Part shown: piece after piece, positions 6,445 to 52,607 of the stretch
Numbering within the stretch: position 1 is the first letter of the stretch
Layout of the letters: each line of letters begins with the position of its first letter
DNA from: a virus
Length of the DNA: 64,000 bases
Virus record (IMG/VR): IMGVR_UViG_3300037475_000240
Location: 62,876-126,875 of that record
Strand: one strand, 5' to 3'
Notes under the pieces: model-generated
What the model was told of the DNA's origin: nothing
The model's input: only the letters and a program-made list of their open reading frames with translations
The model's database searches: none
Translations under genes and position numbers: made by a program

Positions 6445-7704
6445 TCAATCATTTACATCTTCATCCAAGTCAATTAGCCCTTCATCATACAAGGCATCTT
6501 CAATTCTTTCCATTAAGTTAGTGAGATCATTAGGATTTTCGATTACATTTTCATTTATTGCGGCGGCACCTTTGGCTTTAGCTAGCTTTAAATTAACTTT
6601 TTTAGGCTTTAAATCTGCTGGAACTGCTGGTTGAACAGATAAATCAAACAATTGATTTAATATAATTCCAATATCATCTTCATAAATATTGGTAGTACCA
6701 GAAAAGCTTAATGCAATGCCCGTATCAAATTCCGCCTTACTATTTACTTCTTTAATACGCTTTTGTACGTCTGCCCACCTATCTGGGAAAATAGTGCAAG
6801 AACACTGCTCACCATTCTTATCTTCGATAATAGCCTTAATCATTGGCATGCCGTAGTATTTGCTAGTTTCTTTTTTTACCTTAAATTCGAAAAAACTTCT
6901 AATAATACAGTTTACTGGCTCAATTGTAGATTTATTTCCCGCCTTTTTAATATCTTTGATTGTTCTATGATCCCCGGCAAAGAAAGCCTTGTAAGCTTGA
7001 TATGGCTTACAAATAAAGGACTCGTTTAAGTAAAACTGTTCTAACGCATATTTTTCTGATAAACTCCAATCTTGTTCGTTTACCCAAGGATAAATAAAAT
7101 CTTCCTTAGATGGATCATGTTTTTTCATCCAAACTTGTAGTTTCTTTCTATAATCTGAACAATATAAAAACATATGTTTTCTAGAAATATTAAAACTATC
7201 TAAGCAGCCTGAAGCTGCCAAAGCTTGAATTGTATTAGCTCTTACCTTCTTTGAATCTACTCTTGACATAAAATCTAAGAATGAAGTAAATGGTCTCTTA
7301 GTAATAATATCATTAATAGCATCTTCACCTACATACTTCAATGCATCCAAACCCGTAATTAATTTATCTTCACCTTCCATTGTATAGGACAATAGTGACT
7401 TATTTATGTCTGGGGCAATAATTTTTACTTTATGTTGTCTAATTTCTTTCTTAATTTTTTCAATATTTGCTTTTGCATCTGGAGAATTTGATTTTACTTC
7501 CATCATTAAATTAGATAATAAAAATTCAATAGGATAATGTGCTTTCAAATACGCAGTTTTATAACTTGTCATAGAGTATAAAACAGAATGTGAATTAGAT
7601 GTCAGCATCCCATTAGATAAATAAAACTGATGATCTGGATGATTAACTTCTAAATCATAAGTTTGAAAATTACCGACTGGTGTTATTTTTTTAATATTAC
7701 CCAT
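6445..7704 (-). CDS. dnaE: DNA polymerase III alpha, C-terminal half, fused to split-intein IntC
   Basis: IntC followed by SHSVLYSMTSYKTAYLKAHYP, PDINKS, HhH and OB-fold regions; ATG 7704 has an AGGTGA RBS. Confidence 0.92.
   Translation of the reverse strand: MGNIKKITPVGNFQTYDLEVNHPDHQFYLSNGMLTSNSHSVLYSMTSYKTAYLKAHYPIEFLLSNLMMEVKSNSPDAKANIEKIKKEIRQHKVKIIAPDINKSLLSYTMEGEDKLITGLDALKYVGEDAINDIITKRPFTSFLDFMSRVDSKKVRANTIQALAASGCLDSFNISRKHMFLYCSDYRKKLQVWMKKHDPSKEDFIYPWVNEQDWSLSEKYALEQFYLNESFICKPYQAYKAFFAGDHRTIKDIKKAGNKSTIEPVNCIIRSFFEFKVKKETSKYYGMPMIKAIIEDKNGEQCSCTIFPDRWADVQKRIKEVNSKAEFDTGIALSFSGTTNIYEDDIGIILNQLFDLSVQPAVPADLKPKKVNLKLAKAKGAAAINENVIENPNDLTNLMERIEDALYDEGLIDLDEDVND
7594..7704 (-). mobile_element. 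Split intein C-fragment (37 aa)
   Basis: MGNIKKITPVGNFQTYDLEVNHPDHQFYLSNGMLTSN/S: block F (TYDLEV..H.F), terminal Asn, +1 Ser. Confidence 0.9.
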
Positions 7705-8752
7705 ATACTTCACCTATCTTATAAATTCCTGGTTGATTATCATTAAGTATCTTTAATAATCTATCTAAACACTCTTGTTTAAAATATGAATTATCTATTT
7801 TTTCTTTATTAATTTGTTTAGTTGAATATTTAAATTGATCATGAGATATTCTAATTAATAAATAATTATGTTCTTTAATAAAAATTTCTACTTCTTGATC
7901 TCTAGTTTGATTTTTGATTAAAATTTCTTCACCAAAAATATCTTTAAAATGAATAGCTCCATCAAACTCTATAAATATTTTGTTTGTATTATCTTTAATA
8001 TCTATTTGTCTTCTTAATGACTTAGAAGAAAAAGCCTTTGAATTAATAAATTGATTTCTTTTAAAATCAAATCCTGGTAAAGAAACCACAAAATCAAATA
8101 ATATTTTTTCTGGTTTACTTTGAAAAGAAGAAATCATTGGAACAATACATTTTTCGTAAAAATCTTCTGGATTTTCATCTCTCCATTTTTGTAATTGTTT
8201 AGTTCTTTGTTCTAAAATTTCGGGGCGGGCAGAAGTTTTTTTAGCAGCTTCAGACGCTTTTGTTTTCATTACATCAGATTGATTAACTTCTGTCATCACT
8301 TTAGCGCGCCGTTGGCGCTCTTCTGGATTATTTATAATGGCAGCTTTTACTCCTATACTAACTTTCTCCCAATATTCTGTTAAATCTGTACCGTTTTCAA
8401 TAGCTTGATGTAGCCAAGAATTTTCTGAAGCATTTTTAGCATATTTTTGTGAAGACTTTTCAGAAGTAGTAGTTCCTTCATAATCTTTTGGATTAATATT
8501 GTGTATCTTTTTTAAATGAATTCCTAAATTTTGAGCATGAAAATTACAAATTTTACACACAACAAAATCAATACCTTCTATTAAGTTTTTACTATCTTCA
8601 ATACATTGTTTTAAATGAACTATTATTGTGTCTTTTGATCTACATTTATAGTTGCAATATTGACAATAATAGTCAAGTCTTCCTTTATTATCTTCCACAA
8701 TGGAAGCATCTCCCCACTCTCCTCTACGCGAAATTTGTGGCTCATTGTACAT
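7697..8752 (-). CDS. Free-standing homing endonuclease (zinc fingers plus Vsr/DUF559-like domain)
   Basis: CQYC..HLKQC and CKIC..HLKKIH; C-terminal SKPE...IDI...IEFDGAIHF...RD...LIRI; sits between the split dnaE halves. Confidence 0.8.
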   Translation of the reverse strand: MYNEPQISRRGEWGDASIVEDNKGRLDYYCQYCNYKCRSKDTIIVHLKQCIEDSKNLIEGIDFVVCKICNFHAQNLGIHLKKIHNINPKDYEGTTTSEKSSQKYAKNASENSWLHQAIENGTDLTEYWEKVSIGVKAAIINNPEERQRRAKVMTEVNQSDVMKTKASEAAKKTSARPEILEQRTKQLQKWRDENPEDFYEKCIVPMISSFQSKPEKILFDFVVSLPGFDFKRNQFINSKAFSSKSLRRQIDIKDNTNKIFIEFDGAIHFKDIFGEEILIKNQTRDQEVEIFIKEHNYLLIRISHDQFKYSTKQINKEKIDNSYFKQECLDRLLKILNDNQPGIYKIGEVYG

Positions 8753-25653: not shown

Positions 25654-26259
25654 TTATCCTAAAAATACTCCAACTTTAATTTTAATTCTTTTAATAACAA
25701 TTAAATCTTCTTCTGGAACAGGAACCCCATCACATAAATTATGCTCTCCAAAAATTAATGCTCTAGTTTCATCTTCAATTTGATCTATTGGACCTGAACA
25801 AATTGGTTCACCTTTAACCAAAAGAAGATAGGAATCAATCTCTAAATCTTCAACAACATTTAACAAATCATCAGAAATAACTTGATTCCTATCTATTCTT
25901 GGTGAAATACCAACAGCATTTTCTGTATAAAATTCATTATTATCAATAAGCTCTTCAGTATCTTGATTAAAAACATCATCTAAAATATTTCCATCTAGTG
26001 ATGCCCAAGTTTGCCCCATACCAACATTTGGTAATGGAATTTGCTTAGGAATCTCAATCTCTCTGATGCCTGGTTGTCTATTTCGATTGGCAGCTTCAGA
26101 AGGAATTGCTATTGGAGTATTTACTGGAACATCCCCACCCCTATATTCTTGCGGCTCAATACCAAGAATTTGGTATTGAGGAACATATGGCTGAACAAGT
26201 TCCGAATTATTTCTCAGCTTATTTTTATAAATTTTTATACCTTTATTCATAAACTCCAA
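25654..26259 (-). CDS. Hypothetical protein
   Basis: 201-aa ORF. Confidence 0.55.
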   Translation of the reverse strand: MEFMNKGIKIYKNKLRNNSELVQPYVPQYQILGIEPQEYRGGDVPVNTPIAIPSEAANRNRQPGIREIEIPKQIPLPNVGMGQTWASLDGNILDDVFNQDTEELIDNNEFYTENAVGISPRIDRNQVISDDLLNVVEDLEIDSYLLLVKGEPICSGPIDQIEDETRALIFGEHNLCDGVPVPEEDLIVIKRIKIKVGVFLG

Positions 26260-35966: not shown

Positions 35967-36326
35967 TTATGACCTCTTATGTTTTTCCTGTAACTCCCTA
36001 TCTTCAGCGCACGAAATACATGTTAAAAAGTAAGGATTTGCTTCTAATCTTTTTTCAGGAATATTTTCAGTACAATCCTCACATATACCATATGTTAACT
36101 CTTTGATTCTTAAAATAGCATTATCAATGCGGGCAATTTTTTCAGCATGTCTCGTTGCAATTCTATTCTGCATTTCAATTAACATTGCACCTTGAATTTC
36201 ATCTGTTTCATCACCATCTAAATCTATAGATTCTATATCTTGATCTATTTGAGTTTTAGATAATAAATTTTTTCTTTCATTAACTAATTTTTCACTTACT
36301 TTTTTTAAAAATGTTTTATTCAGCAT
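35967..36326 (-). CDS. dksA: DksA/TraR C4 zinc-finger protein
   Basis: DETD at the coiled-coil tip; YGICEDC..IPEKRLEANP...CISC. Confidence 0.88.
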   Translation of the reverse strand: MLNKTFLKKVSEKLVNERKNLLSKTQIDQDIESIDLDGDETDEIQGAMLIEMQNRIATRHAEKIARIDNAILRIKELTYGICEDCTENIPEKRLEANPYFLTCISCAEDRELQEKHKRS

Positions 36327-36714
36327 TTAATAACCTCAAATCATAAATTGGAACAACTATAATTCCTTGTGGTTTTAGCACATTTTGACCATCTATTCTA
36401 CTTTTAAAAAGCAGGTGTGCATGATCTGTTGGTTTCTTTAAAATATTTGCGCTTACAATCCAACCATTGTATTCAGCTGTTTTATAAACAGTTGAGAAAA
36501 TTAATTCTGTAGTGTTTACTAATACTTGAGTTTTCTTTTTATGGAAAGGTCCATAAACATCTTTTGGTTTATATCCAAACTGGCTAGTAAATAAACTAAT
36601 AGCTTCGTCAAGATTTAAAGCCTGAATAGATTTTGTTTGTAATTCATTATTTGTTGAGATTCCGGCACAAACAAAAAAAATAGGTTTTACACGCTTATCC
36701 CGCTTATTAAACAT
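36316..36714 (-). CDS. Hypothetical protein
   Basis: 132 aa; ATG directly follows the upstream in-frame TAG. Confidence 0.6.
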   Translation of the reverse strand: MFNKRDKRVKPIFFVCAGISTNNELQTKSIQALNLDEAISLFTSQFGYKPKDVYGPFHKKKTQVLVNTTELIFSTVYKTAEYNGWIVSANILKKPTDHAHLLFKSRIDGQNVLKPQGIIVVPIYDLRLLNAE

Positions 36715-37047
36715 CTAATCATCCTTAAAAGTTTTGTCAATGTCTAGCGAATTACATAATTTTTTTCTTATCAATGGTGCTAGTGAAAATTTTAAAATAC
36801 GTGCGCCTGATGAAAGCATGATTTTATTATATCTAACATCATGATATTTTCTTGGTTTAGTTTCTTCTAAAGATAAAATTCCAAAATTAAAAATCTTTAT
36901 TTTGTTGCCATTTTTTAAATCTTTTATCATTTCATCAATTAAAATTGTAATAACAGATCCAATATGATAAAAGTGAAGAGATTTATTTAATTTTTTATTA
37001 ACATATTTCCATAAATCTCTTCTACTAATATTGTTAATATCTTTCAT
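36715..37047 (-). CDS. HU/IHF family DNA-binding protein
   Basis: LKNGNKIKIFNFGIL...KPRK...LKF; ends in TAG. Confidence 0.75.
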   Translation of the reverse strand: MKDINNISRRDLWKYVNKKLNKSLHFYHIGSVITILIDEMIKDLKNGNKIKIFNFGILSLEETKPRKYHDVRYNKIMLSSGARILKFSLAPLIRKKLCNSLDIDKTFKDD

Positions 37048-43815: not shown

Positions 43816-44022
43816 AGAAACTCCTTAAGGATATTAGGTGATTGCTATTAATTTTGTTAATCGTTTAATTGCATGCTATGCCTCAATGTGCATTTCACCA
43901 TCTATAGATATGTCAATAAAGTCTATGCTTTTAAAGATAATCAATTTATAATTATAAAGATAGCTGTTTTAGCATAATTTTGCTATTTTAAGTTATTAAA
44001 ACGAGTAAATATGCCACATTAA

Positions 44023-44445
44023 TTACCATTGTACATAATAAGAATAATCTGCAGGTATTAAACAAGTATGACTCTCATCATTAGGATGGTAGTCAGGAGG
44101 ATTATATTGTTCCCTCACTCTTAATCCGTCAACTTCTTTAATAGCTATCACAATTGATTCCACAGGGATATTATTTGGAATAATTGAAGATCCTAAAAAA
44201 ATCTCTTTAATATGTTTATTATAAATATCTCTTTTAATATTATTATCTATTTTTATATCTTCTTTTGCAATTAAATCAAATAAAGTGCTTTCAACCCAAA
44301 CTTTAGCTTCAGGAATTTTAGTTTGTATCTGTTTATTTTTTCGATCACGTTCAAGCGCTTTTGCACGTAATTTTTCAGAAATTTTCTTATTTTCTTCTTG
44401 TTTTGCTTGATTTATTTTTTCTTCTAATTTTGGGTGCATTAACAT
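44023..44445 (-). CDS. Hypothetical protein
   Basis: 140-aa ORF. Confidence 0.55.
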   Translation of the reverse strand: MLMHPKLEEKINQAKQEENKKISEKLRAKALERDRKNKQIQTKIPEAKVWVESTLFDLIAKEDIKIDNNIKRDIYNKHIKEIFLGSSIIPNNIPVESIVIAIKEVDGLRVREQYNPPDYHPNDESHTCLIPADYSYYVQW

Positions 44446-44878
44446 CTACTCCATAATTTTTTAATATAGAAATATCCAGTTTCCATTGTTTTGTGGAACG
44501 TTCAACCCATTTAATAAAAATATCCTCAATATATTTCTCAGCCGTTTTCTTTGACCAAGAATTAATTTTCATTAAATGACGTAAGGCGTGTTCGCTTTTA
44601 TTTTGGATATTTGCGAGCCCAATATGTTTAACCATATGACAGTCCGGGCACAAGGCGATCATTCCGACTAAAATTTGAATTAAATTTTTATCATCATATT
44701 CCCAAATTTCGTGACATTCTACAGGGTGTTTTTTACCAACATCACCACAAATTTGACAAACGTAATAAGCTTCTGAATATACTTTCTGGCGAATTATATC
44801 CCATTGTGTTTGAGTTACTTCTGAACGTATGTTGGAAAACCAGCAGGTAGATGGAACAAGATCAATAGTTAACTTCAT
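44387..44878 (-). CDS. HNH-like nuclease-fold protein
   Basis: LTIDLVPSTCWFSNIR...CQICG...ECHEIWEY...LCPDCHMVKH; start ATG 44878, 3 nt after the tRNA CCA. Confidence 0.7.
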   Translation of the reverse strand: MKLTIDLVPSTCWFSNIRSEVTQTQWDIIRQKVYSEAYYVCQICGDVGKKHPVECHEIWEYDDKNLIQILVGMIALCPDCHMVKHIGLANIQNKSEHALRHLMKINSWSKKTAEKYIEDIFIKWVERSTKQWKLDISILKNYGVDVNAPKIRRKNKSSKTRRK

Positions 44879-44881
44879 TTG

Positions 44882-44956
44882 TGGTGCGTCTAGGGAATTC
44901 TGCCATCCCAACCTACCAGTTTAGAATTGGTCGCTCTACTTTTGAGCTATAGACGC
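44882..44956 (-). tRNA. tRNA with CUA anticodon (amber suppressor) 1
   Basis: GCGTCTA/TAGACGC acceptor stem, GCTC/GAGC D-stem, loop TT-CTA-AA, encoded A-CCA; atypical T-loop GGCAGAA. Confidence 0.8.
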
Positions 44957-45014
44957 ATATTTCGAACTCACTATCAATACTATAACATAATATTACTATA
45001 TAATAGGAGATATA

Positions 45015-45716
45015 ATGAAAAAAATGACTGAAGAAAAATTAAAAGAAGCTGTAAAAAAATCAATTAGTATCGCTGGCGCTTTAAAATTTATGGAAATGAG
45101 TGTTACTACAGGTAACTATAAGTCTTTCCATAAGAAAGTAAAATTATACAATATAGATATAAATCATTTTTTAGGACAATCTCATTTACGTGGAGCTTCA
45201 CATCAAACTAAAAAAAGTATACCTCTTGCAGATATTCTTGTAGAAGATAGTATGTTCTCTAATACTGCTTCACTTAAAATAAAATTATTAAAGACAAATT
45301 TGTTAAAATATGAATGTTATAACTGTGGAATTTCTAGTTGGAAGGACAAAGATTTAATATTACAATTAGATCATATTAATGGCATTTGGAATGACAACCG
45401 TTTAGAAAACTTACGATTATTGTGTCCAAATTGTCACTCCCAAACAGAAACATTTGCTGGTCGTAATATAAATAAAAATAAAGCAAAGGAAACAATTATT
45501 TATTATTATAGTAAGTGTGAAAATTGTGAAGAGCTTGTTCAACAAAAAAACACAACTAAATGTTTAGATTGTTATCTAAAATTACAACCTACTAAAATTT
45601 CATGGCCATCAACTAAAAATTTAATCAAAATGGTAGAAGAAAGTAGTTATTTAGCGGTTGGGAAAAAACTAGGAGTTAGTGATAATGCTGTTAGAAAGAG
45701 AATAAAAAATCATTAA
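45015..45716 (+). CDS. HNH homing endonuclease within the tRNA cluster
   Basis: CYNCG..W....LQLDHING..NDNRLENLRLLCPNCHSQT; C-terminal HTH GKKLGVSDNAVRKR. Confidence 0.88.
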   Translation: MKKMTEEKLKEAVKKSISIAGALKFMEMSVTTGNYKSFHKKVKLYNIDINHFLGQSHLRGASHQTKKSIPLADILVEDSMFSNTASLKIKLLKTNLLKYECYNCGISSWKDKDLILQLDHINGIWNDNRLENLRLLCPNCHSQTETFAGRNINKNKAKETIIYYYSKCENCEELVQQKNTTKCLDCYLKLQPTKISWPSTKNLIKMVEESSYLAVGKKLGVSDNAVRKRIKNH

Positions 45717-45718
45717 AA

Positions 45719-45796
45719 TAGCTCTCTAGGTAGGATTTGAACCTACAATCATCTATTTAGAGTAGATAGCTTTAGACCACTGAGACTTACAGGAGA
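45719..45796 (-). tRNA. tRNA with CUA anticodon (amber suppressor) 2, partly degenerate
   Basis: ATCTA-CT-CTA-AA-TAGAT anticodon arm; GTAGG-TTCAAAT-CCTAC T-arm; acceptor TCTCCTG/CTAGAGA with two mismatches; ends G-CTA. Confidence 0.65.
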
Positions 45797-45801
45797 ATAG
45801 T

Positions 45802-45921
45802 TGAGGCGGCAGGTAAGATTCGCACTTACATCCTCTTCTTTAACTAAGAAGTGCTCGGTCATAAATTATTTATCATATCACGTTAATATGAGATATTTCA
45901 TTTTAATTGAGCTACTGCCAC
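45802..45921 (-). tRNA. tRNA-like gene with 52-nt D-loop; central triplet GTT
   Basis: GTGGCAG/CTGCCGC acceptor, GCTC/GAGC D-stem around 52 nt, CTTCT-TAGTTAA-AGAAG, GTAAG-TGCGAAT-CTTAC. Confidence 0.65.
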
Positions 45922-45962
45922 ATAAAATCTATAACAACTATAATTTATTTTTTAATGAAAAA

Positions 45963-46697
45963 TTAAACTTGAACTCCAGCACCATAATAAGATGTAACCC
46001 ATGCATCTAAAGCAGCTTTTTCACCTGATGTGGGTTCTCCATTCCAGGCTCCAACAGCCGCAATATCTACATCAGAACTTGTTGTTGATGCATTTGATCT
46101 AGCGAATAAAACGAAAGATGGAGCATCGGAATTACCAGCATTAGCTCCAGTAACGGATGTAGATCCAGCTTTTACGTAATCAGAAGTGCTATTAGTAAAT
46201 GATGTTTCTACACGAGTGGCAACTCCAATTGTTGCTCCACCATTTACGTTAACTTGAGTTGTGTTGCTTTGTCGAATATTGACTCCACCTGATGCTTGTG
46301 AAATCGCTAAAATACCATTACCACCAGCCATAATGTATCTACCTGATAAGCTTGAACGTTGACGCAAAATTACCCAGAACCACACTGGCGTGGTACCAGG
46401 TACTGGTGGATCCCAAGTCATTGTCATAGCAGCATTATTACTACTAGTTAGACTATTTCGTGAACCAAAATTAGAATCTGCAATATTATAAGCTGGTTGT
46501 AAGCCGGTGTTAGCTTGAACAGCATTATTTCCATTTCCACTTTGATCTGCCCATAACGATGCACCTGTTACAACTGTAACTCCAAGATCCGCAATTAAAT
46601 AGAAAAAGGCTGATCTACTAGTTATAATAGACAAAGGATCAGTTGGTCCTATTTGTACTGAATTTTTTATCCAAGATATTGTTGCTGTACCAGGCAT
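45963..46697 (-). CDS. LamG/concanavalin-like beta-sandwich protein, probably virion-associated
   Basis: WADQSGNGNNAVQ...QP motif; Ser/Thr/Gly/Ala-rich. Confidence 0.55.
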   Translation of the reverse strand: MPGTATISWIKNSVQIGPTDPLSIITSRSAFFYLIADLGVTVVTGASLWADQSGNGNNAVQANTGLQPAYNIADSNFGSRNSLTSSNNAAMTMTWDPPVPGTTPVWFWVILRQRSSLSGRYIMAGGNGILAISQASGGVNIRQSNTTQVNVNGGATIGVATRVETSFTNSTSDYVKAGSTSVTGANAGNSDAPSFVLFARSNASTTSSDVDIAAVGAWNGEPTSGEKAALDAWVTSYYGAGVQV

Positions 46698-46724
46698 ATA
46701 AATATGCCGTTACAGTAATATAAA

Positions 46725-47063
46725 TTACTTAAATGCTAACTTTAAATTATTAACTAATTTTTTAGTTAATTTGCCGGGCTCTATACAAATTGCAGTAAGA
46801 GAATTATTTAAATCTGGTTCTAAAAATTTTGAATATTTTAACTCTAATTCTTCTGATTTATTAATTAAATTAATTAAATCACTTTCAGAAGCTACAGCTA
46901 ATAGACAAATATAATTTGAATTATTAAACCATTCTTTATCTATTTCAGGATGATCATTTGAGAATTGTCTTAAAGCATGACATAGTTGTGATGCTTGTTG
47001 ACCAAAATTCAAATCATTTCTAGTAATTACGTATAACTTATCATTTTGTTGAATCTACGACAT
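46725..47063 (-). CDS. Pth2-family peptidyl-tRNA hydrolase with in-frame TAG at codon 3
   Basis: AAGGA-8nt-ATG TCG TAG ATT CAA...; MS*IQQNDKLYVITRNDLNFGQQASQLCHA...EPDLNNSLTAICI; the YVxxRxDL motif lies upstream of the track's TTG start. Confidence 0.8.
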
Positions 47064-47427
47064 TTTTTATTTCCTTCATTTTTGACACAAATTTACGACC
47101 ATGTTCACGCCATTTTTCAACAGCTTCAGCATACCTATTTCCATTATCTTGGCATTCTGATAAATCAATAGGCACTTCTGGATCTTCTAATAATACATCA
47201 GCCAAACTTAGTGGATTAATAAATATTTTCATTCCTCTGGAAGTAATTTTTCCGCCCACTATATTATAGTATGGAAGGCTTTCATCTCGATTAAGTATTT
47301 CTAATCTTCCATCATAATAAGCTGGAACAATTTCTACAAAATGTATATCATTGTTACCAATACAACATTCAGCCTCACCTGACGGATCTTCTTTCATTAA
47401 TAACTCAATTAATTTTTTAGTTTTCAT
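47041..47427 (-). CDS. Hypothetical protein
   Basis: 128 aa, ATGA-coupled to the HD gene. Confidence 0.65.
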   Translation of the reverse strand: MKTKKLIELLMKEDPSGEAECCIGNNDIHFVEIVPAYYDGRLEILNRDESLPYYNIVGGKITSRGMKIFINPLSLADVLLEDPEVPIDLSECQDNGNRYAEAVEKWREHGRKFVSKMKEIKNVVDSTK

Positions 47428-47996
47428 TTAATAAATAATTTCTGACAAATAGCTTTGCCTCGCTTGTTAATTTGATTCCATTTAATTTTAAATGATTCAG
47501 ATGTGCAACCACCAAACATTTTAGAATTAGAATGAATTTCGGCTAATCCTACTATTAACAAAGTAATAGCCTCTGGATACTTAATAAAATTATCTACATC
47601 TATTGCTTTCATTTTATGAATAAGCATATCCATTTTCATTAGTTGAGCGGCTTGTAAATTACCACCCACGCTCAACCAAACTTCATAAGATTTTTCTGCA
47701 TGATTAGGAAAATGTTTCTTACCAAGACTATCTATTTCTAAACAATAAATTTTTCCACAATCATGATAGATTGTATATTCTTCAATAATACTTTCAGATA
47801 ATAAGTTATTTAATATTTGTTCGCGAAATTGAAAAAACCATTCAGGTAATCTCCAGCCTGACAATTCCACATTGTTTTTTAACATAAATAATAATTCAAA
47901 ATAGTGCTCTTTTACAGAAATTCCATGTTGGTAAATGGTTTGATTTTCTGTTTGCAAACAGCTCTGCATATCTAAAATTAATTGACTCTATAACAT
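47424..47996 (-). CDS. HD-domain hydrolase with in-frame TAG at codon 3
   Basis: AGGAG-5nt-ATG TTA TAG AGT CAA...; ML*SQLILDMQSC...QHG...YHDCGK...HFPNHA. Confidence 0.75.
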
Positions 47997-48023
47997 TTTA
48001 ACTCCTAATTATATATACCGTTA

Positions 48024-48368
48024 TTACATAAAAGCTTTAAGCCCTAAAATTTTTTCAAATTCTTTTTGAGAAGAACACTCAATATTTTTACCTTTATAAA
48101 ACCAAGCGACAGCTCCAGTTATAAAAATAACTGCAGGTCCATCTAACCTGTGAATTAATCCATATTCATACCATTCTTTATATTTTCCACTTTGTGAGAT
48201 ATAAGCAGGTCCATTAATTCTATGTAATTTTCCTTCAAAATACCATTCTTCATCACCATTAGAATATTCAATGGCAGGTCCATCTACTCGATGTAAAACA
48301 TTATTTTTATACCATTTGAATCCATTTGCATATTCAAACACACCATTTTTTATAACGTCTTCAGCCAT
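48024..48368 (-). CDS. HRxDGPA-repeat protein
   Basis: Three WY.xG.LHR.DGPA repeats; likely start MAEDV. Confidence 0.7.
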   Translation of the reverse strand: MAEDVIKNGVFEYANGFKWYKNNVLHRVDGPAIEYSNGDEEWYFEGKLHRINGPAYISQSGKYKEWYEYGLIHRLDGPAVIFITGAVAWFYKGKNIECSSQKEFEKILGLKAFM

Positions 48369-48871
48369 GCTGCACATTCTTTTGCATGAGAAACTGATTC
48401 AATAATATCATCTTTAGCTCTATGAGCTTCAGCTTTTTTAAATTCAGGCATACCTAAACTTTGGCAAAATAACTTCACTGAAGATACATCATAGTGACGA
48501 TGAGAAAATCTATCATGAAGTGGTGCCATATATTGTTTAATAAACCCAGCATCAAAATGAATTGCGCTACCAGCATAGATTGGCATGCTTTTTCTATTTA
48601 CAGCAGTAGGAATTAATTTTAATAAATCCTCTTGAACATCTTCAATAGTTGCAGTGCTTTCTAAGCACTCTTTAAGCAAACCATTTTTAGTATGCATTTC
48701 TCTTACAAAAGGATCTAAAGATTCATCTTGGCTAAATTTTAAAACATTTTGATATACAAAATTAATGTTAAAAGGATCTTCTAGAGTTGCTTTATAAACT
48801 GCAACTTCTAATATTTTATCTATTTCAGGTTTAAGTCCAGTTGTTTCTAAATCAATCCAATATAAATCCAT
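48350..48871 (-). CDS. orn: Oligoribonuclease (DEDDh)
   Basis: WIDLETTGL, MHTKNGL, GSAIHFD, HYDVSSVK, HRAKDDIIES. Confidence 0.9.
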   Translation of the reverse strand: MDLYWIDLETTGLKPEIDKILEVAVYKATLEDPFNINFVYQNVLKFSQDESLDPFVREMHTKNGLLKECLESTATIEDVQEDLLKLIPTAVNRKSMPIYAGSAIHFDAGFIKQYMAPLHDRFSHRHYDVSSVKLFCQSLGMPEFKKAEAHRAKDDIIESVSHAKECAAWLKTL

Positions 48872-49362
48872 TATGTGCCCTTCAGTTTTTCTAAAAAGGT
48901 TCTTGGGTCCAATAGTTCTTCTGGCTTAGGCTCATCATGCTTCCAAGTAACATGATGTCTTGTACCTATCGTATACTGCTCTAAATGCAGCATAGTAGTA
49001 CCATTGCCTTTATCTTTTTTTAAAACCGGAACAATGTGTGCTATAACTTCGCCTTCGGTCACTTTATAATTTTTAATTATGTGTGGCAATGGTTTTAATT
49101 CGCAATAACCTACTACGCCAGAATTTCCTTCAATTAAGATTGACCAAGTATCTAACCACCAAGGACTTGGAGGCTCGGCTTCAGCTCCAGTAAAGTGTTC
49201 AATATGAACAACAACTCCATCTTCAATAGATTGAACTTCTTCTCCTGATGAACAATAAAGATCTATTCCAGGATGATAATAAAAAGATCTTTTGAAGGCA
49301 AAGTCTCCGACAGATCCAAGATCAGGTATAGAGGGCTGTTTATTTTTTAATGGCCATTTCAT
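48871..49362 (-). CDS. M23 family peptidase
   Basis: HPGIDL (HxxxD), MLHLE. Confidence 0.75.
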   Translation of the reverse strand: MKWPLKNKQPSIPDLGSVGDFAFKRSFYYHPGIDLYCSSGEEVQSIEDGVVVHIEHFTGAEAEPPSPWWLDTWSILIEGNSGVVGYCELKPLPHIIKNYKVTEGEVIAHIVPVLKKDKGNGTTMLHLEQYTIGTRHHVTWKHDEPKPEELLDPRTFLEKLKGT

Positions 49363-49434
49363 GTAAAATTATTATATATTTTTTATAATATTGATGTTTA
49401 CCATTATTATCTTATATAAGAGTAGGAGAATATT

Positions 49435-50070
49435 ATGACAGCAAAATTAGTTACAGCCGTAAGAACAACATATAATCAACAACAAATGATTAAAGGATTC
49501 GTTGAGGGCTGGTTTAAACAATTTGGATCAGTTCCAAAAAAAGAATCTATTGGGGTTTTATATTCTCAAAATGCATTAGAGACTGGCGGAACAGTTTCAA
49601 TGTGGAACAATAATGTTGGTAACGTTAAATTTGTACCTAATAAAGATCCTAATCTTGATGCAGGCAAAGAATATATGATGTTAGCAAATGTTTGGGAGAT
49701 TATTGGTGGAGTAAAGAAAATATTTAATCCACCAGATCCAGCCACTTGGTTTAGATCTTTTCCAACTTTAGCTGAAGGCATTAGCTTTCATCTTGATACA
49801 TTAAAAAATAAAAATTTTAAAAGTGCATGGACTGCAGTCGATTCAGGTAATCCAGCAGCCTTTGCTCATTTGTTAAAACTAAAAGGATACTATACTGCAC
49901 CTGAAGCAGATTATATTAAGTTAATGAATTTTTATTATTCAAAATATATGAAGGATAGTACGTTTGAAGTTGCTATTAAATCACTACCAGTAGCTCCAGT
50001 TATTGAGGTTGATCCAGCTCCACCCGTAAGTGATTCCTTTTTTGATAAATTTAAAAAAATCTTAGGATAA
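49435..50070 (+). CDS. GH73/FlgJ-like peptidoglycan hydrolase (endolysin candidate)
   Basis: QNALETG, NNVGNVK, FRSF, GYYTAPE..Y. Confidence 0.7.
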   Translation: MTAKLVTAVRTTYNQQQMIKGFVEGWFKQFGSVPKKESIGVLYSQNALETGGTVSMWNNNVGNVKFVPNKDPNLDAGKEYMMLANVWEIIGGVKKIFNPPDPATWFRSFPTLAEGISFHLDTLKNKNFKSAWTAVDSGNPAAFAHLLKLKGYYTAPEADYIKLMNFYYSKYMKDSTFEVAIKSLPVAPVIEVDPAPPVSDSFFDKFKKILG

Positions 50071-50355
50071 AGTTACTGTAGAATTAGTTAATACTGCAAC
50101 AAATTTAGCTTTGAATTTTTCTTGTTCAGGATAATCTCCCAACATAAAAACTGCATTTGCATTTATAATTGTCAAATGATAGTCTGTTAAATGTTGACTA
50201 ATTTCATCTGGCATTCCACCAAACTCTGGATAATAAACTTGAAACCCATAATGGTCTCCGACTAAAAGCACATTATCATTAACGTCTTTAAGGATCCTGT
50301 CTCTATTATCCCAAAACCAATTAACTAATGGTTCTAACCAAACTACCATTTTCAT
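50062..50355 (-). CDS. Hypothetical protein
   Basis: Start ATG 50355; the longer track ORF begins inside the tmRNA. Confidence 0.55.
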   Translation of the reverse strand: MKMVVWLEPLVNWFWDNRDRILKDVNDNVLLVGDHYGFQVYYPEFGGMPDEISQHLTDYHLTIINANAVFMLGDYPEQEKFKAKFVAVLTNSTVTLS

Positions 50356-50377
50356 AATACATAATTTCCTAATAAAT

Positions 50378-50733
50378 TGGTGTAGGCGCAGGGTATCGAA
50401 GCCCTGGTCCACAAAACGTCATTATCGAAATTCATTCACAAGCTTAGTTAATGTTAACGTCACTAACAACGTTGAAAGAATTCGCTCTCACGGGCTATCT
50501 ACATTAATTTCATGTTGAACTATATAGAGTTATCCAACACTATCTTTAGTGGGTTTATACTTCTTTGATTACCAAAAATATCTCATCTGGAAGTATCAAG
50601 TGTGCCCTTAGGCTGCTTGAGCAATGCTATTATCGTTTGCATTTGGACGTTTAATTGCTTTTTATAAGGTTGCAATCATCCTTAGCTTGCATCATTTCGA
50701 CAAATCTTTTCCATGTCGAATCCATTCGCCCAC
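50378..50733 (-). ncRNA. ssrA: tmRNA, tag (A)ANDNSIAQAA
   Basis: 5' GTGGGCGAATGGATTCGAC; 3' CAGGGCTTCGATACCCTG-CGCCTAC-ACCA with G3-U pair; tag ORF at 50608-50640. Confidence 0.92.
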
Positions 50734-50752
50734 ATATTCGTAACAACAGAAT

Positions 50753-50938
50753 TTAACTTCTGCTTTTAAATTGATTTGCTGGTATTGGATGAGCACCATT
50801 CAAATAAGAATTATATCCACCTCTACCATCATCAATCCAAACACTATTATTACCACAACTACATATTAAATAGTAATCAACACCCATGCGAGTGTCTTTA
50901 CCACAAATATGTCCGCAATTTGAACAAACATAATCCAT
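50753..50938 (-). CDS. Small zinc-ribbon protein
   Basis: CSNC...CSC; AGGA RBS. Confidence 0.55.
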   Translation of the reverse strand: MDYVCSNCGHICGKDTRMGVDYYLICSCGNNSVWIDDGRGGYNSYLNGAHPIPANQFKSRS

Positions 50939-50953
50939 ATTAATCCTAATAGT

Positions 50954-51028
50954 TGGAGCTACAGGTGAGAATCAAACTCACGACAACCTACCTACCAAGT
51001 AGGGATTCTATCACTGAATTACTGTAGC
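50954..51028 (-). tRNA. tRNA-Thr(GGT)
   Basis: GCTACAG/CTGTAGC acceptor, CCTAC-TT-GGT-AG-GTAGG, encoded CCA. Confidence 0.85.
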
Positions 51029-51116
51029 TTACTAAGATATTGATGGAGTAACAAGAGAACATTACCACCTGCCCTTTTTCTCTTAAAAATGTATAAGGTG
51101 TTTTCTTCAATATCTG

Positions 51117-51193
51117 TGGAGCCCTGGACCAGGATTTGAACCGGTGACCTGTGCCTTACAAGAGCACTGCTCTACCAACTGAGCTACCAGGGC
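51117..51193 (-). tRNA. tRNA-Thr(TGT)
   Basis: GCCCTGG/CCAGGGC acceptor, AGTTGGTA D-loop, CT-TGT-AA, TTCAAAT, encoded CCA. Confidence 0.93.
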
Positions 51194-51220
51194 ATGTATA
51201 ACATATTTTGTTATGCGTAT

Positions 51221-51248
51221 ATTATAACCACGACAAACTGACTGTCAA
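51221..51248 (-). promoter_or_regulatory. Consensus sigma70-type promoter for the tRNA-Thr/tmRNA unit
   Basis: TTGACA-N16-TATAAT, 27 nt upstream of tRNA-Thr(TGT). Confidence 0.8.
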
Positions 51249-51266
51249 TGGTTTTTATTTTAAAAA

Positions 51267-52052
51267 TTACAGTCCACCTTCTCTAAAAATATCCATACCA
51301 TTTTTTAATATATTACTTAAAAATGATTGATCTCTAGTAAAAATAGGAAGCTCAGAGTTTAAAAACCACTTAGCCTTCATTTTACCATCAACTACTTTAG
51401 GGACTTTATAGTAAGCTGTCCCTCTTTTGAAAGCGGATGGATAGTCATTAAAATCAATATTAGATTCTTGTTTTAAGAGTTCAATTTTTTCGTCTGCTCC
51501 TAATCCTGATAACATCTCTCTAATTGTATTTTTATCATGTTTCTTTAATAATTCATATAGACAGGCTTGATGAAGAGAACTCAAAAAGCTATGTTGTTGC
51601 TTATAAACCATTGTATTAATAGCTTCACCAACAGTGGGTACAGGAAAAACCTGAGATATAAAAATCGGATCACCTAATGTGTTTAACTTAATAGTACTAG
51701 CACAATCATTGAAATGCATAGTAGCAATAGCTGATGTTACTGAACATATTTTTTGAATGTTATTGTCAAACCAAGCTTCAGTATCATTGTTTTGATCATT
51801 TCTAAGTATTAAAGTGATTTCATCACTATGTTGATAGGCAAAAACTACACCTTCAACTTCATTACATATTCTTAATGAAGTATTAAAAATACATTCAGCA
51901 AATTTATTATCATAAGGCTTATCTAATAAAGATGTTAATTTAGAAAAATTCTTTCCATTTATATTAATAATAATTGGAACCTTAGCAATTAAAGTATAAT
52001 TTGTAGTTTTTTGATAAGACTCTATTCGGTCTTTTAAGGTGAGGCTAGACAT
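51267..52052 (-). CDS. Thg1-like (tRNA-His guanylyltransferase family) protein
   Basis: PIIININGKNFSKLT..KPYD, AYQHSDEITL, AWFDNNIQKICSV, FKRG. Confidence 0.85.
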   Translation of the reverse strand: MSSLTLKDRIESYQKTTNYTLIAKVPIIININGKNFSKLTSLLDKPYDNKFAECIFNTSLRICNEVEGVVFAYQHSDEITLILRNDQNNDTEAWFDNNIQKICSVTSAIATMHFNDCASTIKLNTLGDPIFISQVFPVPTVGEAINTMVYKQQHSFLSSLHQACLYELLKKHDKNTIREMLSGLGADEKIELLKQESNIDFNDYPSAFKRGTAYYKVPKVVDGKMKAKWFLNSELPIFTRDQSFLSNILKNGMDIFREGGL

Positions 52053-52073
52053 TCTACTTTAACTATAACTGCT

Positions 52074-52607
52074 TTATTTTATTTGCAATAAGTAATTTTG
52101 AATAATTGTTTTTAAATTTCCACCTAATTTTGTAGTTAATTGCCCGCTTGTGTTAGATGAGGGCAAATTATTTAAAGATGGTTGAGATTTAATATAATTA
52201 ATTTTTTCAGCAATTTGTTCTGATGTAAGAGCTTGTTTAAATTCTTGTCCCAAATTAGTATAAACATATGTGTACATTAACTTACAGAAAGCCATTATGT
52301 TTTTTAAATCTTGAGAGGGTATCTGTGAGATGCCGGCGCCAAAATTATTAGTTTTCATCCACTGTAAATTAACCTGTCCATTACTAGTATAATAGAGTGC
52401 GTCATTCAAGACATTTGATAGTCCATTAATCCATGGAACGTTTTTAGTATTAAAGCCAATTACTAAGCTAGGATAAGCACTAGATGCAGTAAAGGAAGGG
52501 GGTGCGCCCGCCACCGATTTATTTTTATTAACCTCATCAGTCGCCATCTGATTAGTGGCAGCTTGAGCAAGCTTTTTTAAAATAGCAAGTTTGGCAGTAG
52601 TCTTCAT
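52074..52607 (-). CDS. Hypothetical protein
   Basis: 177 aa; N-terminus KLAILKKLAQ. Confidence 0.65.
   Translation of the reverse strand: MKTTAKLAILKKLAQAATNQMATDEVNKNKSVAGAPPSFTASSAYPSLVIGFNTKNVPWINGLSNVLNDALYYTSNGQVNLQWMKTNNFGAGISQIPSQDLKNIMAFCKLMYTYVYTNLGQEFKQALTSEQIAEKINYIKSQPSLNNLPSSNTSGQLTTKLGGNLKTIIQNYLLQIK

What the first reader, a model, noticed from the sequence alone, without database searches (positions are those of the whole stretch)
47424..48019. HD-domain protein whose best RBS points at a two-codon amber minigene
Seen: the only clear Shine-Dalgarno (AGGAG, 48002-48006) sits 5 nt before ATG-TTA-TAG. The in-frame ATG at 47969 has no RBS. The H...HD...H pattern (QHG, YHDCGK, HFPNHA) recalls HD domains attached to tRNA nucleotidyltransferases. 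Inference: a tRNA 3'-end healing or de-modifying enzyme co-regulated with Pth2.
Basis: partly seen in the sequence, partly recalled or inferred. Interest (0 to 1): 0.75.

Follow-up and report, generated by a model that had tools for sequence, protein, structure and literature searches.

The report
Amber-gated phage tRNA-repair genes
The supposed two-codon minigene is really the start of the HD-domain gene, which, like the neighbouring Pth2 gene, carries a conserved UAG stop a few codons in and so can probably be made in full only when the phage's own UAG-reading tRNAs override that stop.

Summary
In detail: AGGAG (48002-48006), 5 nt, then ATG-TTA-TAG on the minus strand, and no ribosome-binding site before ATG 47969.

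The Pth2 gene (46725-47063) opens the same way, ATG-TCG-TAG. Its Pfam domain begins before any canonical start.

Two CUA-anticodon tRNAs lie 1.6-2.7 kb downstream on the same strand.

- In related phage and metagenome loci, 51 of 67 distinct HD-gene upstream sequences keep ATG, 1-6 codons, then an in-frame TAG.
- I found 51 distinct Pth2 starts with this amber and 3 without.
- The codons after the TAG are conserved as protein, with synonymous changes.
- Cultured jumbo phages show it too: XacN1, RsoM2USA, RAS14, pT24, GAP32, Arash, ME3.
- In some phages the two genes are fused, in either order.

These genomes are otherwise standard-code. The fold is an HD domain, closest to that of a class II CCA-adding enzyme.

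Best reading: amber-gated translation that ties two tRNA-end enzymes to the phage's suppressor tRNAs. I found no paper describing this, and the XacN1 authors wrote that they could not find targets for its suppressor tRNAs. The inserted amino acid and the purpose of the gate remain inferred.

The parts
48002..48006 (-). Shine-Dalgarno AGGAG, 5 nt upstream of the true start codon of the HD-like gene
   Evidence: An SD-like motif sits at the same place in 36 of 51 distinct relatives.
47424..47996 (-). HD-like gene read from its true start: ATG 47994-47996, Leu codon, amber TAG 47988-47990 as codon 3, then 187 sense codons and the stop. The code-11 gene model starts at ATG 47967-47969.
   Evidence: In frame. 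The amber is conserved in 51 of 67 distinct relatives. Codons after the TAG are conserved as protein. AlphaFold2 pLDDT 93.2, with residues 3-12 modelled as a helix. HD fold.
47988..47990 (-). In-frame amber codon (codon 3) of the HD-like gene
47041..47427 (-). 128-aa ORF of unknown function lying between the HD-like and Pth2 genes; not found between them in the related loci compared
   Evidence: no family; in those loci the HD-like and Pth2 matches lie about 10-30 nt apart.
46725..47063 (-). Pth2-like gene: AAGGA 47072-47076, ATG 47061-47063, TCG, amber TAG 47055-47057 as codon 3, then the PF01981 domain. The only canonical start after the TAG (TTG 47012) would cut off the first domain residues.
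   Evidence: Pfam PF01981 at 34.7 bits (cut-off 23), covering residues 9-109 of the read-through protein. Amber conserved: 51 distinct amber starts against 3 without.
45721..45796 (-). CUA-anticodon tRNA of the type with U1:A72 and G73. This copy has two acceptor-stem mismatches and a weak D arm.
   Evidence: ARAGORN. Rfam 25.8 bits, below the 29-bit gathering score. Compared with relatives' copies.
44882..44956 (-). Second CUA-anticodon tRNA (G1:C72, A73, encoded CCA), with non-canonical D and T loops
   Evidence: Rfam tRNA 43.7 bits, anticodon loop UUCUAAA. ARAGORN missed it. The related type best matches E. coli tRNA-Lys, at 72%.
45015..45716 (+). HNH endonuclease gene on the opposite strand, inserted between the two CUA tRNAs
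   Evidence: Homologs lie at the same place in L013 and L021.
50378..50733 (-). Phage tmRNA, part of the same conserved translation island
   Evidence: Rfam RF00023, 104.5 bits. tmRNA at the syntenic place in relatives.
50954..51193 (-). Two tRNA-Thr genes (GGU, UGU) of the island
   Evidence: Relatives carry 2-4 Thr tRNAs here.
51267..52052 (-). Thg1-like gene (tRNA-His guanylyltransferase family) at the head of the island
   Evidence: Pfam PF04446 4e-22 and PF14413. Syntenic in relatives.

Best explanation
The HD-like gene starts at ATG 47996, not 47969. Its third codon is UAG. The full 189-residue protein is made only when the ribosome inserts an amino acid at that UAG, most likely through the two CUA-anticodon tRNAs the phage encodes 1.6-2.7 kb downstream on the same strand.

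The Pth2-like gene two ORFs downstream is built the same way. Together they form a conserved 'amber-gated' pair: two enzymes that act on tRNA ends, a peptidyl/aminoacyl-tRNA hydrolase and a CCA-enzyme-type HD phosphohydrolase, whose synthesis is tied to the activity of the phage's own suppressor tRNAs.

Placing the stop 2-7 codons after the start means a failed read-through costs only a tiny peptide.

- Shown: the anatomy, its conservation, protein-level constraint downstream of the UAG, co-occurrence with CUA tRNAs, the standard code elsewhere in these genomes, and the HD fold.
- Inferred: that the CUA tRNAs are charged and read this UAG, which residue goes in (Gln or Lys are the likeliest), and why the gate exists. 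My preferred reason is a feed-forward gate or sensor that switches these enzymes on only once the infected cell reads UAG as sense.
For: 1. Frame and signals. ATG-TTA-TAG is in frame with the ORF and carries the only SD.

2. Second case. Pth2 opens ATG-TCG-TAG behind AAGGA. Its Pfam domain (profile positions 2-114 of 115) begins at residue 9, upstream of the only later start, TTG 47012.

3. Conservation in relatives.
- 20 of 23 viral loci and 51 of 67 distinct sequences among 98 loci keep ATG, 1-6 codons, then TAG.
- The TAG lies 7 codons before the conserved Met in 45 of the 51.
- Protein identity to the window's protein is 48-77%.
- For Pth2, 18 of 21 viral loci and 51 distinct amber starts against 3 without.

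4. The stretch after the TAG is translated. Among 46 distinct sequences, +3 is Leu in 36 (5 different codons), +4 is Ile in 41 (3 codons) and +6 is Asp in 39 (2 codons). No start codon lies between the TAG and this stretch. RAS14 has no Met after the TAG at all, and its annotated GTG start cuts off the QHG motif.

5. Readers of the codon.
- CUA tRNAs lie in 19 of 23 viral loci within 4 kb, with 45 distinct sequences of three types.
- They are also present in XacN1, RsoM2USA, RAS14 and pT24 and next to the genes in GAP32, Arash and ME3.

6. This is not general recoding.
- In the window's genome, 118 of 149 long ORFs end in TAA, 28 in TGA and 3 in TAG.
- A TAG joins two long open stretches in 1 of 205 frames in this genome and 30 of 1048 in the loci.
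- Only these two genes pair an SD-bearing upstream ATG with an in-frame TAG.

7. Functional link. The two genes are fused HD-Pth2 in XacN1, RAS14 and P0090, and Pth2-HD in pT24, L067 and L076. In XacN1, RAS14, pT24, L067 and L076 the DNA shows the amber at the start of the fusion; for P0090 only the protein was seen.

8. The N-terminal extension is modelled as a confident helix (residues 3-12, pLDDT about 92).

9. The two complete relatives searched (G001, G002) each encode a release-factor homolog with the RF-1 domain. The G001 copy scores as RF2: prfB, 398 bits, cut-off 370.
Against: - There is no direct evidence of translation. No RNA run was listed and no proteomics was available.
- Both CUA tRNAs of this window look degraded. 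One scores 25.8 bits, under Rfam's 29-bit cut-off, and has two acceptor-stem mismatches. The other lacks the canonical D-loop GG and T-loop UUC. Suppression in this particular phage could therefore be weak or lost.
- The Met nine codons downstream is invariant in the alignment, so a shorter product by re-initiation cannot be excluded for the HD-like gene.
- L016/L017 keep the HD amber, but no CUA tRNA was found in that record, which is a 37%-complete fragment.
- The 'Q' at the amber position in database homologs may be only the gene callers' table-15 translation. It is not evidence for Gln.
- tRNA identity is unresolved.
- The window's genome is a 29%-complete fragment.
Confidence: 0.78

Rival explanations
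1. Termination and re-initiation. Ribosomes translate the two-codon ORF, terminate at UAG, and some re-initiate at ATG 47969, giving a 181-residue HD protein. The mini-ORF serves only to load ribosomes.
For: The Met at 47969 is invariant in 35 aligned homologs. ATG 47969 lacks its own SD. Short upstream ORFs can couple translation (general knowledge).
Against: The six codons between TAG and Met are conserved as protein with synonymous variation, which re-initiation does not require. Pth2 has no start codon between its TAG and the beginning of its domain. RAS14 has no Met after the TAG. The mini-ORF length varies from 2 to 7 codons, yet the TAG stays in frame. CUA tRNAs are encoded beside the genes.
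Confidence: 0.1
2. A lambda bar-type toxic minigene. A free-standing SD-ATG-codon-stop unit provokes peptidyl-tRNA drop-off and ties up a host tRNA, placed near a Pth gene for that reason.
For: The SD, two sense codons and a stop resemble the recalled lambda bar minigenes. A peptidyl-tRNA hydrolase gene is next door. Termination on very short nascent peptides is inefficient (recalled knowledge).
Against: The unit is always in frame with the downstream ORF and always ends in TAG, never TAA or TGA. Its sense part varies in length and codon: CTA in 17, TTA in 5, CAC in 5, and others. The following codons are under protein constraint.
Confidence: 0.04
3. A nonsense mutation or an assembly error. 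The gene is a recent pseudogene, or the TAG is an artefact of this contig.
For: CAG to TAG is a single change. The window's CUA tRNAs look degraded.
Against: The same amber occurs in 51 distinct sequences from many samples and in independently sequenced cultured phages. A second gene carries it at the same relative position.
Confidence: 0.01
4. Genome-wide reassignment of TAG (table 15), as in crAss-like and Lak phages. The ambers here would simply be two of many sense TAGs.
For: CUA tRNAs are present. A release-factor homolog is present in the two complete relatives searched, scored as RF2 in G001. TAG is almost unused as a stop. Some gene callers translated homologs through the TAG.
Against: Code-11 ORFs already cover 93% of the genome. 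A TAG joins long open stretches in only 1 of 205 frames here and 30 of 1048 in relatives. Syntenic genes such as Thg1, M23 and HNH align end to end without breaks. Another candidate (25654-26259) has no amber in its relatives.
Confidence: 0.05

Closest known systems
Stop-codon recoding with phage-encoded suppressor tRNAs (TAG read as Gln; crAss-like, Lak and other gut phages; Borges et al. preprint 10.1101/2021.08.26.457843, passages read)
   Same: Phage CUA tRNAs and depletion of TAG stops occur here. A phage release-factor homolog occurs in the two complete relatives searched, scored as RF2 in G001. The proposed idea is shared: in-frame stops delay or gate translation until the suppressor is active.
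   Different: In those phages, many TAGs are spread through structural and lysis genes, and the genomes fragment under code 11. Here the genome reads well under code 11. The amber is a single codon 2-7 codons after the start of two specific tRNA-related genes next to the tRNAs. 'N-termin' has 0 occurrences in that preprint.
Suppressor tRNAs of standard-code jumbo phages with no known target (XacN1, PMC5852040; RsoM2USA, PMC8504454; passages read)
   Same: The same kind of phage and the same CUA tRNAs. XacN1 and RsoM2USA carry homologs of this gene with the N-terminal amber.
   Different: The XacN1 authors read through 18 annotated amber stops, found nothing, and wrote that they could not identify target genes. 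The targets proposed here sit at gene starts, behind unannotated 2-7 codon ORFs, so that approach could not find them.
prfB (RF2) autoregulation by an early in-frame stop codon (recalled knowledge)
   Same: A conserved in-frame stop early in an ORF makes the yield of a translation factor depend on the balance between termination and recoding at that codon.
   Different: prfB uses UGA and a +1 frameshift and senses its own product. Here the frame is unchanged, the codon is UAG, and the sensed quantity would be suppressor tRNA against RF1.
Engineered suppressor-tRNA feed-forward 'leak dampener' (PMC7969014; title and abstract seen in the listing)
   Same: Gene output requires both the mRNA and a co-expressed amber suppressor tRNA, which gives AND-logic gating.
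   Different: That circuit is synthetic. This would be a natural circuit conserved across jumbo phages.
HD domain of bacterial class II CCA-adding enzymes (PDB 3WFO-3WFS)
   Same: Best structural match: Z 15.2, rmsd 2.6 A over 157 residues, chain residues 250-446. H...HD...D residues are present.
   Different: This is a stand-alone 190-residue protein without the nucleotidyltransferase head. Sequence identity is 12%, and there is no Pfam HD hit at E <= 0.01.
Lambda bar minigenes (recalled knowledge)
   Same: An SD, a start codon, one or a few sense codons and a stop, in a setting that involves peptidyl-tRNA hydrolase.
   Different: Here the unit is in frame with, and continuous with, a conserved ORF. 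It always ends in TAG and has variable length.

Membership tests
HD-domain metal-dependent phosphohydrolase superfamily | Conserved H...HD...D metal-binding residues | tested here: met
   H24, H78, D79 and D123 (plus H95, H99, H127, E153, H155) are invariant in 35 sequences. That these are the metal ligands is inferred from the motif, not checked on coordinates.
HD-domain metal-dependent phosphohydrolase superfamily | All-alpha HD fold | tested here: met
   Model pLDDT 93.2. VIA-align Z 15.2 to 3WFR residues 250-446; Z 10-11.7 to the GlyRS-beta HD domain, PhnZ, PgpH and PPX/GppA; Z 8.6-8.9 to YfbR and OxsA. Foldseek E-values were only 7.5e-3 and weaker.
HD-domain metal-dependent phosphohydrolase superfamily | Match to a curated HD sequence model | tested here: not met
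   No Pfam family at E <= 0.01 and no NCBIfam family at E <= 0.001. The only match is PHROG 14850, of unknown function.
HD-domain metal-dependent phosphohydrolase superfamily | Phosphohydrolase activity and its substrate | not testable with these tools
   Needs enzymology.
Peptidyl-tRNA hydrolase Pth2 (PF01981), for the neighbouring gene | Match to the family model over its whole length | tested here: met
   PF01981 at 34.7 bits (cut-off 23), profile positions 2-114 of 115. The NCBIfam equivalog models score far below their cut-offs: 27.7 against 126, and 23.5 against 82. It is a distant member, not an equivalog.
Stop-codon-recoded (table 15) phages | Many in-frame TAG codons, so that genes fragment under code 11 | tested here: not met
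   93% of the genome is covered by code-11 ORFs. TAG joins long open stretches in 1 of 205 frames here and 30 of 1048 in relatives.
Stop-codon-recoded (table 15) phages | Phage-encoded CUA suppressor tRNA | tested here: met
   Two in the window. 19 of 23 related viral loci have at least one.
Lambda bar-type minigene | A free-standing mini-ORF whose stop ends translation, with no dependence on the downstream frame | tested here: not met
   Always in frame with the downstream ORF. Downstream codons are under protein constraint.
Functional elongator tRNA (the two CUA tRNAs of this window) | Canonical cloverleaf with an intact acceptor stem and D/T-loop tertiary partners | tested here: inconclusive
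   45721-45796 scores 25.8 bits, under the 29-bit cut-off, with C5·A68 and U6·U67 mismatches by my reading. 44882-44956 scores 43.7 bits but has a non-canonical T loop and no D-loop GG. Relatives' copies look canonical.

The most novel reading that the evidence does not exclude
Standard-code jumbo phages run a short, deliberate code switch. Their CUA tRNAs, helped by a phage RF2, make UAG a sense codon in the infected cell, which sabotages termination of host genes. The only phage genes written to need that state are a Pth2-like hydrolase and a CCA-enzyme-type HD phosphohydrolase. These two, together with the phage tmRNA, clean up the stalled ribosomes and blocked tRNA ends that the switch or host anti-tRNA defences create. 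On this reading the N-terminal amber is a built-in sensor that doses the clean-up enzymes according to how far the cell has been converted.
Probability: 0.25. Interest if true: 0.9.

Novelty: new variant of a known kind. Interest (0 to 1): 0.82.

Why it matters
Many large phages that use the standard code carry amber-suppressor tRNAs with no known purpose. The XacN1 paper says in so many words that no target genes could be identified.

A conserved amber a few codons into two adjacent, sometimes fused, tRNA-end enzymes gives these tRNAs a concrete natural target. It also explains why read-through searches from annotated stops missed it.

It corrects the gene models of this family: database proteins start at the wrong Met or, as in RAS14, at a GTG that removes a catalytic motif.

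It offers a natural example of suppressor-gated translation that can be tested directly in cultured phages.

It ties the HD-like protein to Pth2, tmRNA, Thg1-like and tRNA genes as one translation-maintenance island.

Tried and rejected
- Other amber-gated genes in this genome.
  - 25654-26259 has ATG-ACG-CTT-TAG upstream, but its relatives start at the later Met behind a TAA or with no amber.
  - 44023-44445 has ATG-GAG-TAG immediately before its own SD-served ATG and inside the upstream gene's coding region.
  - 6445-7713 was not pursued beyond Pfam.
- Megablast of 8 kb of the window against phage records: no match.
- Sequence search of solved structures: only weak hits, best E 2.9e-5 to an unrelated repeat protein and 0.16 to the 3WFO group.
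- tRNA identity by likeness to E. coli tRNAs.
  - The G1:C72 type best matches tRNA-Lys, at 72% with E 0.2.
  - A U1:A72 type best matches records annotated tRNA-Ile.
  - The third type has no match.
  - This is too weak to name the amino acid.
- Sense codons at the amber position in the few relatives that lack it were AAA (L089) and TTA (L077), by my counting back from the conserved Met. With two cases, this is not informative.
- Promoter and terminator scan of 44000-52500: promoter-like sites are common in this AT-rich DNA (61 found against 44 expected). It gives no usable statement on co-transcription.
Whether the two proteins bind is left open.
- Sequencing runs: no RNA holder listed.
- GlnRS/GluRS-family synthetase (PF00749): none found in the window's genome or in two complete relatives.
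- Earlier-findings look-ups by place and by sequence returned nothing.
Full report
**The observation**

On the minus strand the sequence reads AGGAG (48006-48002), five bases, ATG (47996-47994), TTA, TAG (47990-47988). Eighteen more bases follow, then ATG at 47969, which opens the 181-codon ORF that ends at 47424.

The 'minigene' is therefore in the same frame as the ORF. Read through, the product starts Met-Leu-amber and then runs six residues into the Met of the annotated start.

**A second case nearby**

The Pth2-like gene (PF01981, 34.7 bits against a cut-off of 23) opens the same way: AAGGA, eight bases, ATG (47063-47061), TCG, TAG (47057-47055). Its Pfam match covers profile positions 2-114 of 115 and begins at residue 9 of the read-through protein. 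The only canonical start after the TAG is TTG 47012, nine residues inside the domain. Ordinary initiation cannot make this gene whole.

**tRNAs that can read the codon**

- ARAGORN finds a CUA-anticodon tRNA at 45721-45796 on the same strand.
- Rfam finds a second tRNA at 44885-44956 (43.7 bits) with anticodon loop UUCUAAA, hence also CUA, followed by an encoded CCA.
- An HNH endonuclease gene on the other strand lies between them.
- Both copies look worn. The first scores 25.8 bits, under Rfam's 29-bit cut-off, and by my reading has two acceptor-stem mismatches. The second lacks the usual D-loop GG and T-loop UUC.

**Relatives: conservation of the ambers**

A protein search returned 440 homologs. 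Those of 181-187 residues begin at the Met equivalent to 47969. Those of 190-198 residues begin Met-x-Gln-x-Gln-Leu-Ile-x-Asp-Met. That Gln is not independent evidence, because gene callers that use table 15 would print Q for TAG.

The DNA is decisive.

- 20 of 23 loci from viral contigs have an in-frame TAG a few codons after an ATG.
- Adding 75 metagenome loci gives 98 loci, of which 90 show the N-terminus.
- These hold 67 distinct upstream sequences.
- 51 of the 67 have ATG, 1-6 codons, then TAG, at 48-77% protein identity to the window.
- The TAG lies 7 codons before the conserved Met in 45, 8 codons in 4 and 9 codons in 2.

Of the 16 counted as lacking the pattern:
- L009 and L060 do carry an in-frame TAG but failed my strict criterion.
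- L067 and L076 are 322-residue Pth2-HD fusions whose amber sits at codon 3 of the fused gene.
- Most of the rest are 52% identical or less and have longer N-termini.

An SD-like motif precedes the upstream ATG in 36 of 51 sequences and the conserved Met in 0 of 51.

For Pth2, 18 of 21 viral loci have the amber. I extracted 51 distinct amber-started Pth2 proteins against 3 distinct starts without one: L016/L017, L018/L081 and L066.

**The stretch after the TAG is translated**

Among 46 distinct sequences with the TAG at -7:
- The third codon after the TAG is Leu in 36, using five different Leu codons.
- The fourth is Ile in 41, using three codons.
- The sixth is Asp in 39, using two codons.

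This is constraint at the protein level. No start codon lies between the TAG and this stretch, so ribosomes must arrive through the TAG. The base after the TAG is A in 29, C in 13, G in 9 and never T. The AlphaFold2 model (pLDDT 93.2) places residues 3-12 in a confident helix.

**The island**

The relatives share this order: Thg1-like gene, two to four tRNA-Thr genes, tmRNA, M23 peptidase, HD-like gene, Pth2-like gene, one or two CUA tRNAs, HNH gene, tRNA-Arg(CCU).

- 19 of 23 viral loci have at least one CUA tRNA within 4 kb.
- The loci hold 45 distinct CUA tRNAs.
- By my reading these fall into three types: U1:A72 with G73; G1:C72 with A73 or C73; and a C1:G72 type with G73.
- Many loci carry two different types.

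The window has the same island (Thg1-like 51267-52052, tRNA-Thr twice, tmRNA 50378-50733). It differs by a 128-codon ORF inserted between HD and Pth2, and by a 244-codon ORF and an odd tRNA inserted before the CUA tRNAs.

**Not a recoded genome**

- Code-11 ORFs cover 93% of the 126,875-base record.
- Of 149 long ORFs, 118 end in TAA, 28 in TGA and 3 in TAG.
- A TAG joins two long open stretches in 1 of 205 long frames here and in 30 of 1048 in the relatives' loci.
- Only the HD-like and Pth2 genes combine an SD-served upstream ATG, an in-frame TAG, and no SD at the annotated start.
- Another candidate failed the comparative test.

The two complete relatives searched (G001, 447,763 bases; G002, 480,838 bases) each encode a release-factor homolog with the RF-1 domain and an SPF motif. 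The G001 copy was scored against NCBIfam as RF2 (prfB, 398 bits, cut-off 370). None was found in the window's record, which is rated 29% complete.

**Cultured phages**

A protein search of phage records found 29 records with the HD-like gene. I read nine of them.

| Phage | What the DNA shows |
|---|---|
| Xanthomonas XacN1 | Met-Lys-amber opens an HD-Pth2 fusion |
| Stenotrophomonas RAS14 | Met-Lys-amber opens an HD-Pth2 fusion; no Met after the amber, and the annotated GTG start removes the QHG motif |
| Tenacibaculum pT24 | Met-Lys-amber opens a Pth2-HD fusion |
| Ralstonia RsoM2USA | Met-Lys-Ser-amber opens the HD-like gene |
| Uncultured 634-kb phage | Met-Asn-Thr-amber opens the HD-like gene |
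| GAP32, fHe-Yen9-04, Arash, ME3 | The Pth2-like gene just upstream of the HD-like gene opens with Met, one or two residues, then amber |
| GAP32, fHe-Yen9-04 | The HD-like gene also has an internal amber that splits its annotation |

CUA tRNAs were confirmed in RsoM2USA, RAS14, pT24 and XacN1. They lie within 3 kb of the genes in GAP32, Arash and ME3. I did not check fHe-Yen9-04 beyond its 5.5-kb locus.

The XacN1 paper (passages read) reports two CUA tRNAs per terminal repeat. It states that read-through of 18 amber stops revealed nothing and that target genes could not be identified. The RsoM2USA paper (passages read) reports one CUA tRNA.

**The protein**

- Pfam and NCBIfam give no family. 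PHROG 14850, of unknown function, matches.
- The model's best structural match is residues 250-446 of PDB 3WFR and its sister entries: Z 15.2, rmsd 2.6 A, 157 residues aligned.
- Next come the HD domain of bacterial GlyRS beta (Z 11.7) and PhnZ, PgpH and PPX/GppA (about 10), followed by YfbR and OxsA (8.6-8.9).
- Foldseek's own E-values were weak, 7.5e-3 at best.
- A preprint whose passages I read calls 3WFR a bacterial class II CCA-adding enzyme and discusses it among HD-domain comparisons.
- H24, H78-D79, H95, H99, D123, H127, E153 and H155 are invariant.

I therefore read it as an active HD phosphohydrolase of the kind attached to CCA-adding enzymes, working with Pth2 on tRNA ends. The substrate is inferred.

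**Mechanism and its limits**

The best-supported mechanism is that both genes are translated through an early UAG by the phage's CUA tRNAs, so their output follows suppressor activity.

- An early stop makes failure cheap.
- The same logic has been engineered as a suppressor-tRNA feed-forward gate (PMC7969014; listing only).
- It also resembles the early in-frame stop of prfB (recalled).

Why these two enzymes are gated is open. One possibility is that they clean up after a UAG-to-sense switch that also needs tmRNA and RF2. Another is that they are harmful if made too early.

Not shown: that the tRNAs are charged, which residue is inserted, and that the window's own degraded tRNAs still work.

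**Literature and earlier notes**

Five full-text searches found no paper describing an N-terminal amber in these genes. The Borges et al. preprint on phage recoding has no occurrence of 'N-termin'.

Four earlier AI notes of this scan, on other genomes, reached a similar reading for a Pth2-like or small gene beside CUA tRNAs. They are leads, not independent evidence.
- The HD-like gene as a second, co-gated and sometimes fused target.
- Its fold.
- The codon-level test.
- The cultured-phage cases.

Noticed in passing
window 50378-50733 (-): Phage-encoded tmRNA (Rfam 104.5 bits) that ARAGORN did not call in the window. By my reading of the Rfam alignment its tag reading frame would encode about ten residues ending Ala-Ala. 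Relatives' tmRNAs have tags such as those ARAGORN printed.
   Followed up: partly
window 45805-45921 (-): tRNA-like gene (Rfam 41.4 bits) with a 49-nt insert in the D loop that folds as its own hairpin. Without the insert, ARAGORN calls it tRNA-Asn(GUU), with A instead of U at position 33. L001 has a 22-nt match at the syntenic spot. Unexplained.
   Followed up: partly
window 36316-37047 (-): An HU-like DNA-binding gene (PF00216) ends in TAG. It is followed at once, in frame, by the ATG of a 132-codon ORF. Amber read-through would fuse the two. It is one of only 3 of 149 long ORFs that end in TAG.
   Followed up: partly
window 45015-45716 (+) and 44387-44878 (-): Two HNH endonuclease genes flank or separate the CUA tRNAs. 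The plus-strand one sits between the two tRNAs and has homologs at the same place in L013 and L021.
   Followed up: partly
window 51221-51248 (-): A perfect sigma-70 consensus (TTGACA, 16 nt, TATAAT) just upstream of the tRNA-Thr pair.
   Followed up: no
window 48024-48377 (-); L016/L017: A 117-residue repeat protein just upstream of the HD-like gene has about ten tandem paralogs around the HD/Pth2 pair in L016/L017.
   Followed up: no
G001:C1:425360-426439; G002:C1:406809-407903: The two complete huge-phage relatives searched each encode a full-length release-factor homolog with an SPF motif. The G001 copy scores as RF2 (prfB, 398 bits, above the cut-off).
   Followed up: yes
L108 2462-3028 (fHe-Yen9-04); L111 2462-3028 (GAP32): In these two cultured jumbo phages (GAP32 and fHe-Yen9-04) the HD-like gene has a conserved internal amber at about codon 47. 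It is annotated as two or three separate small ORFs.
   Followed up: partly
L109 3464-3538 (Salmonella phage Arash): The record annotates this tRNA as tRNA-Phe, whereas ARAGORN reads the anticodon as CTA.
   Followed up: no
L005, L009, L010, L012, L022: Relatives carry tRNA-Thr genes for all four Thr anticodons in a row, next to the tmRNA. The window keeps two (GGU, UGU).
   Followed up: no
L104 4413-4973 (RsoM2USA_92): In RsoM2USA the amber that precedes the HD-like ORF is also the annotated stop of the upstream gene in the same frame. Read-through could therefore also give a fusion with that protein.
   Followed up: no
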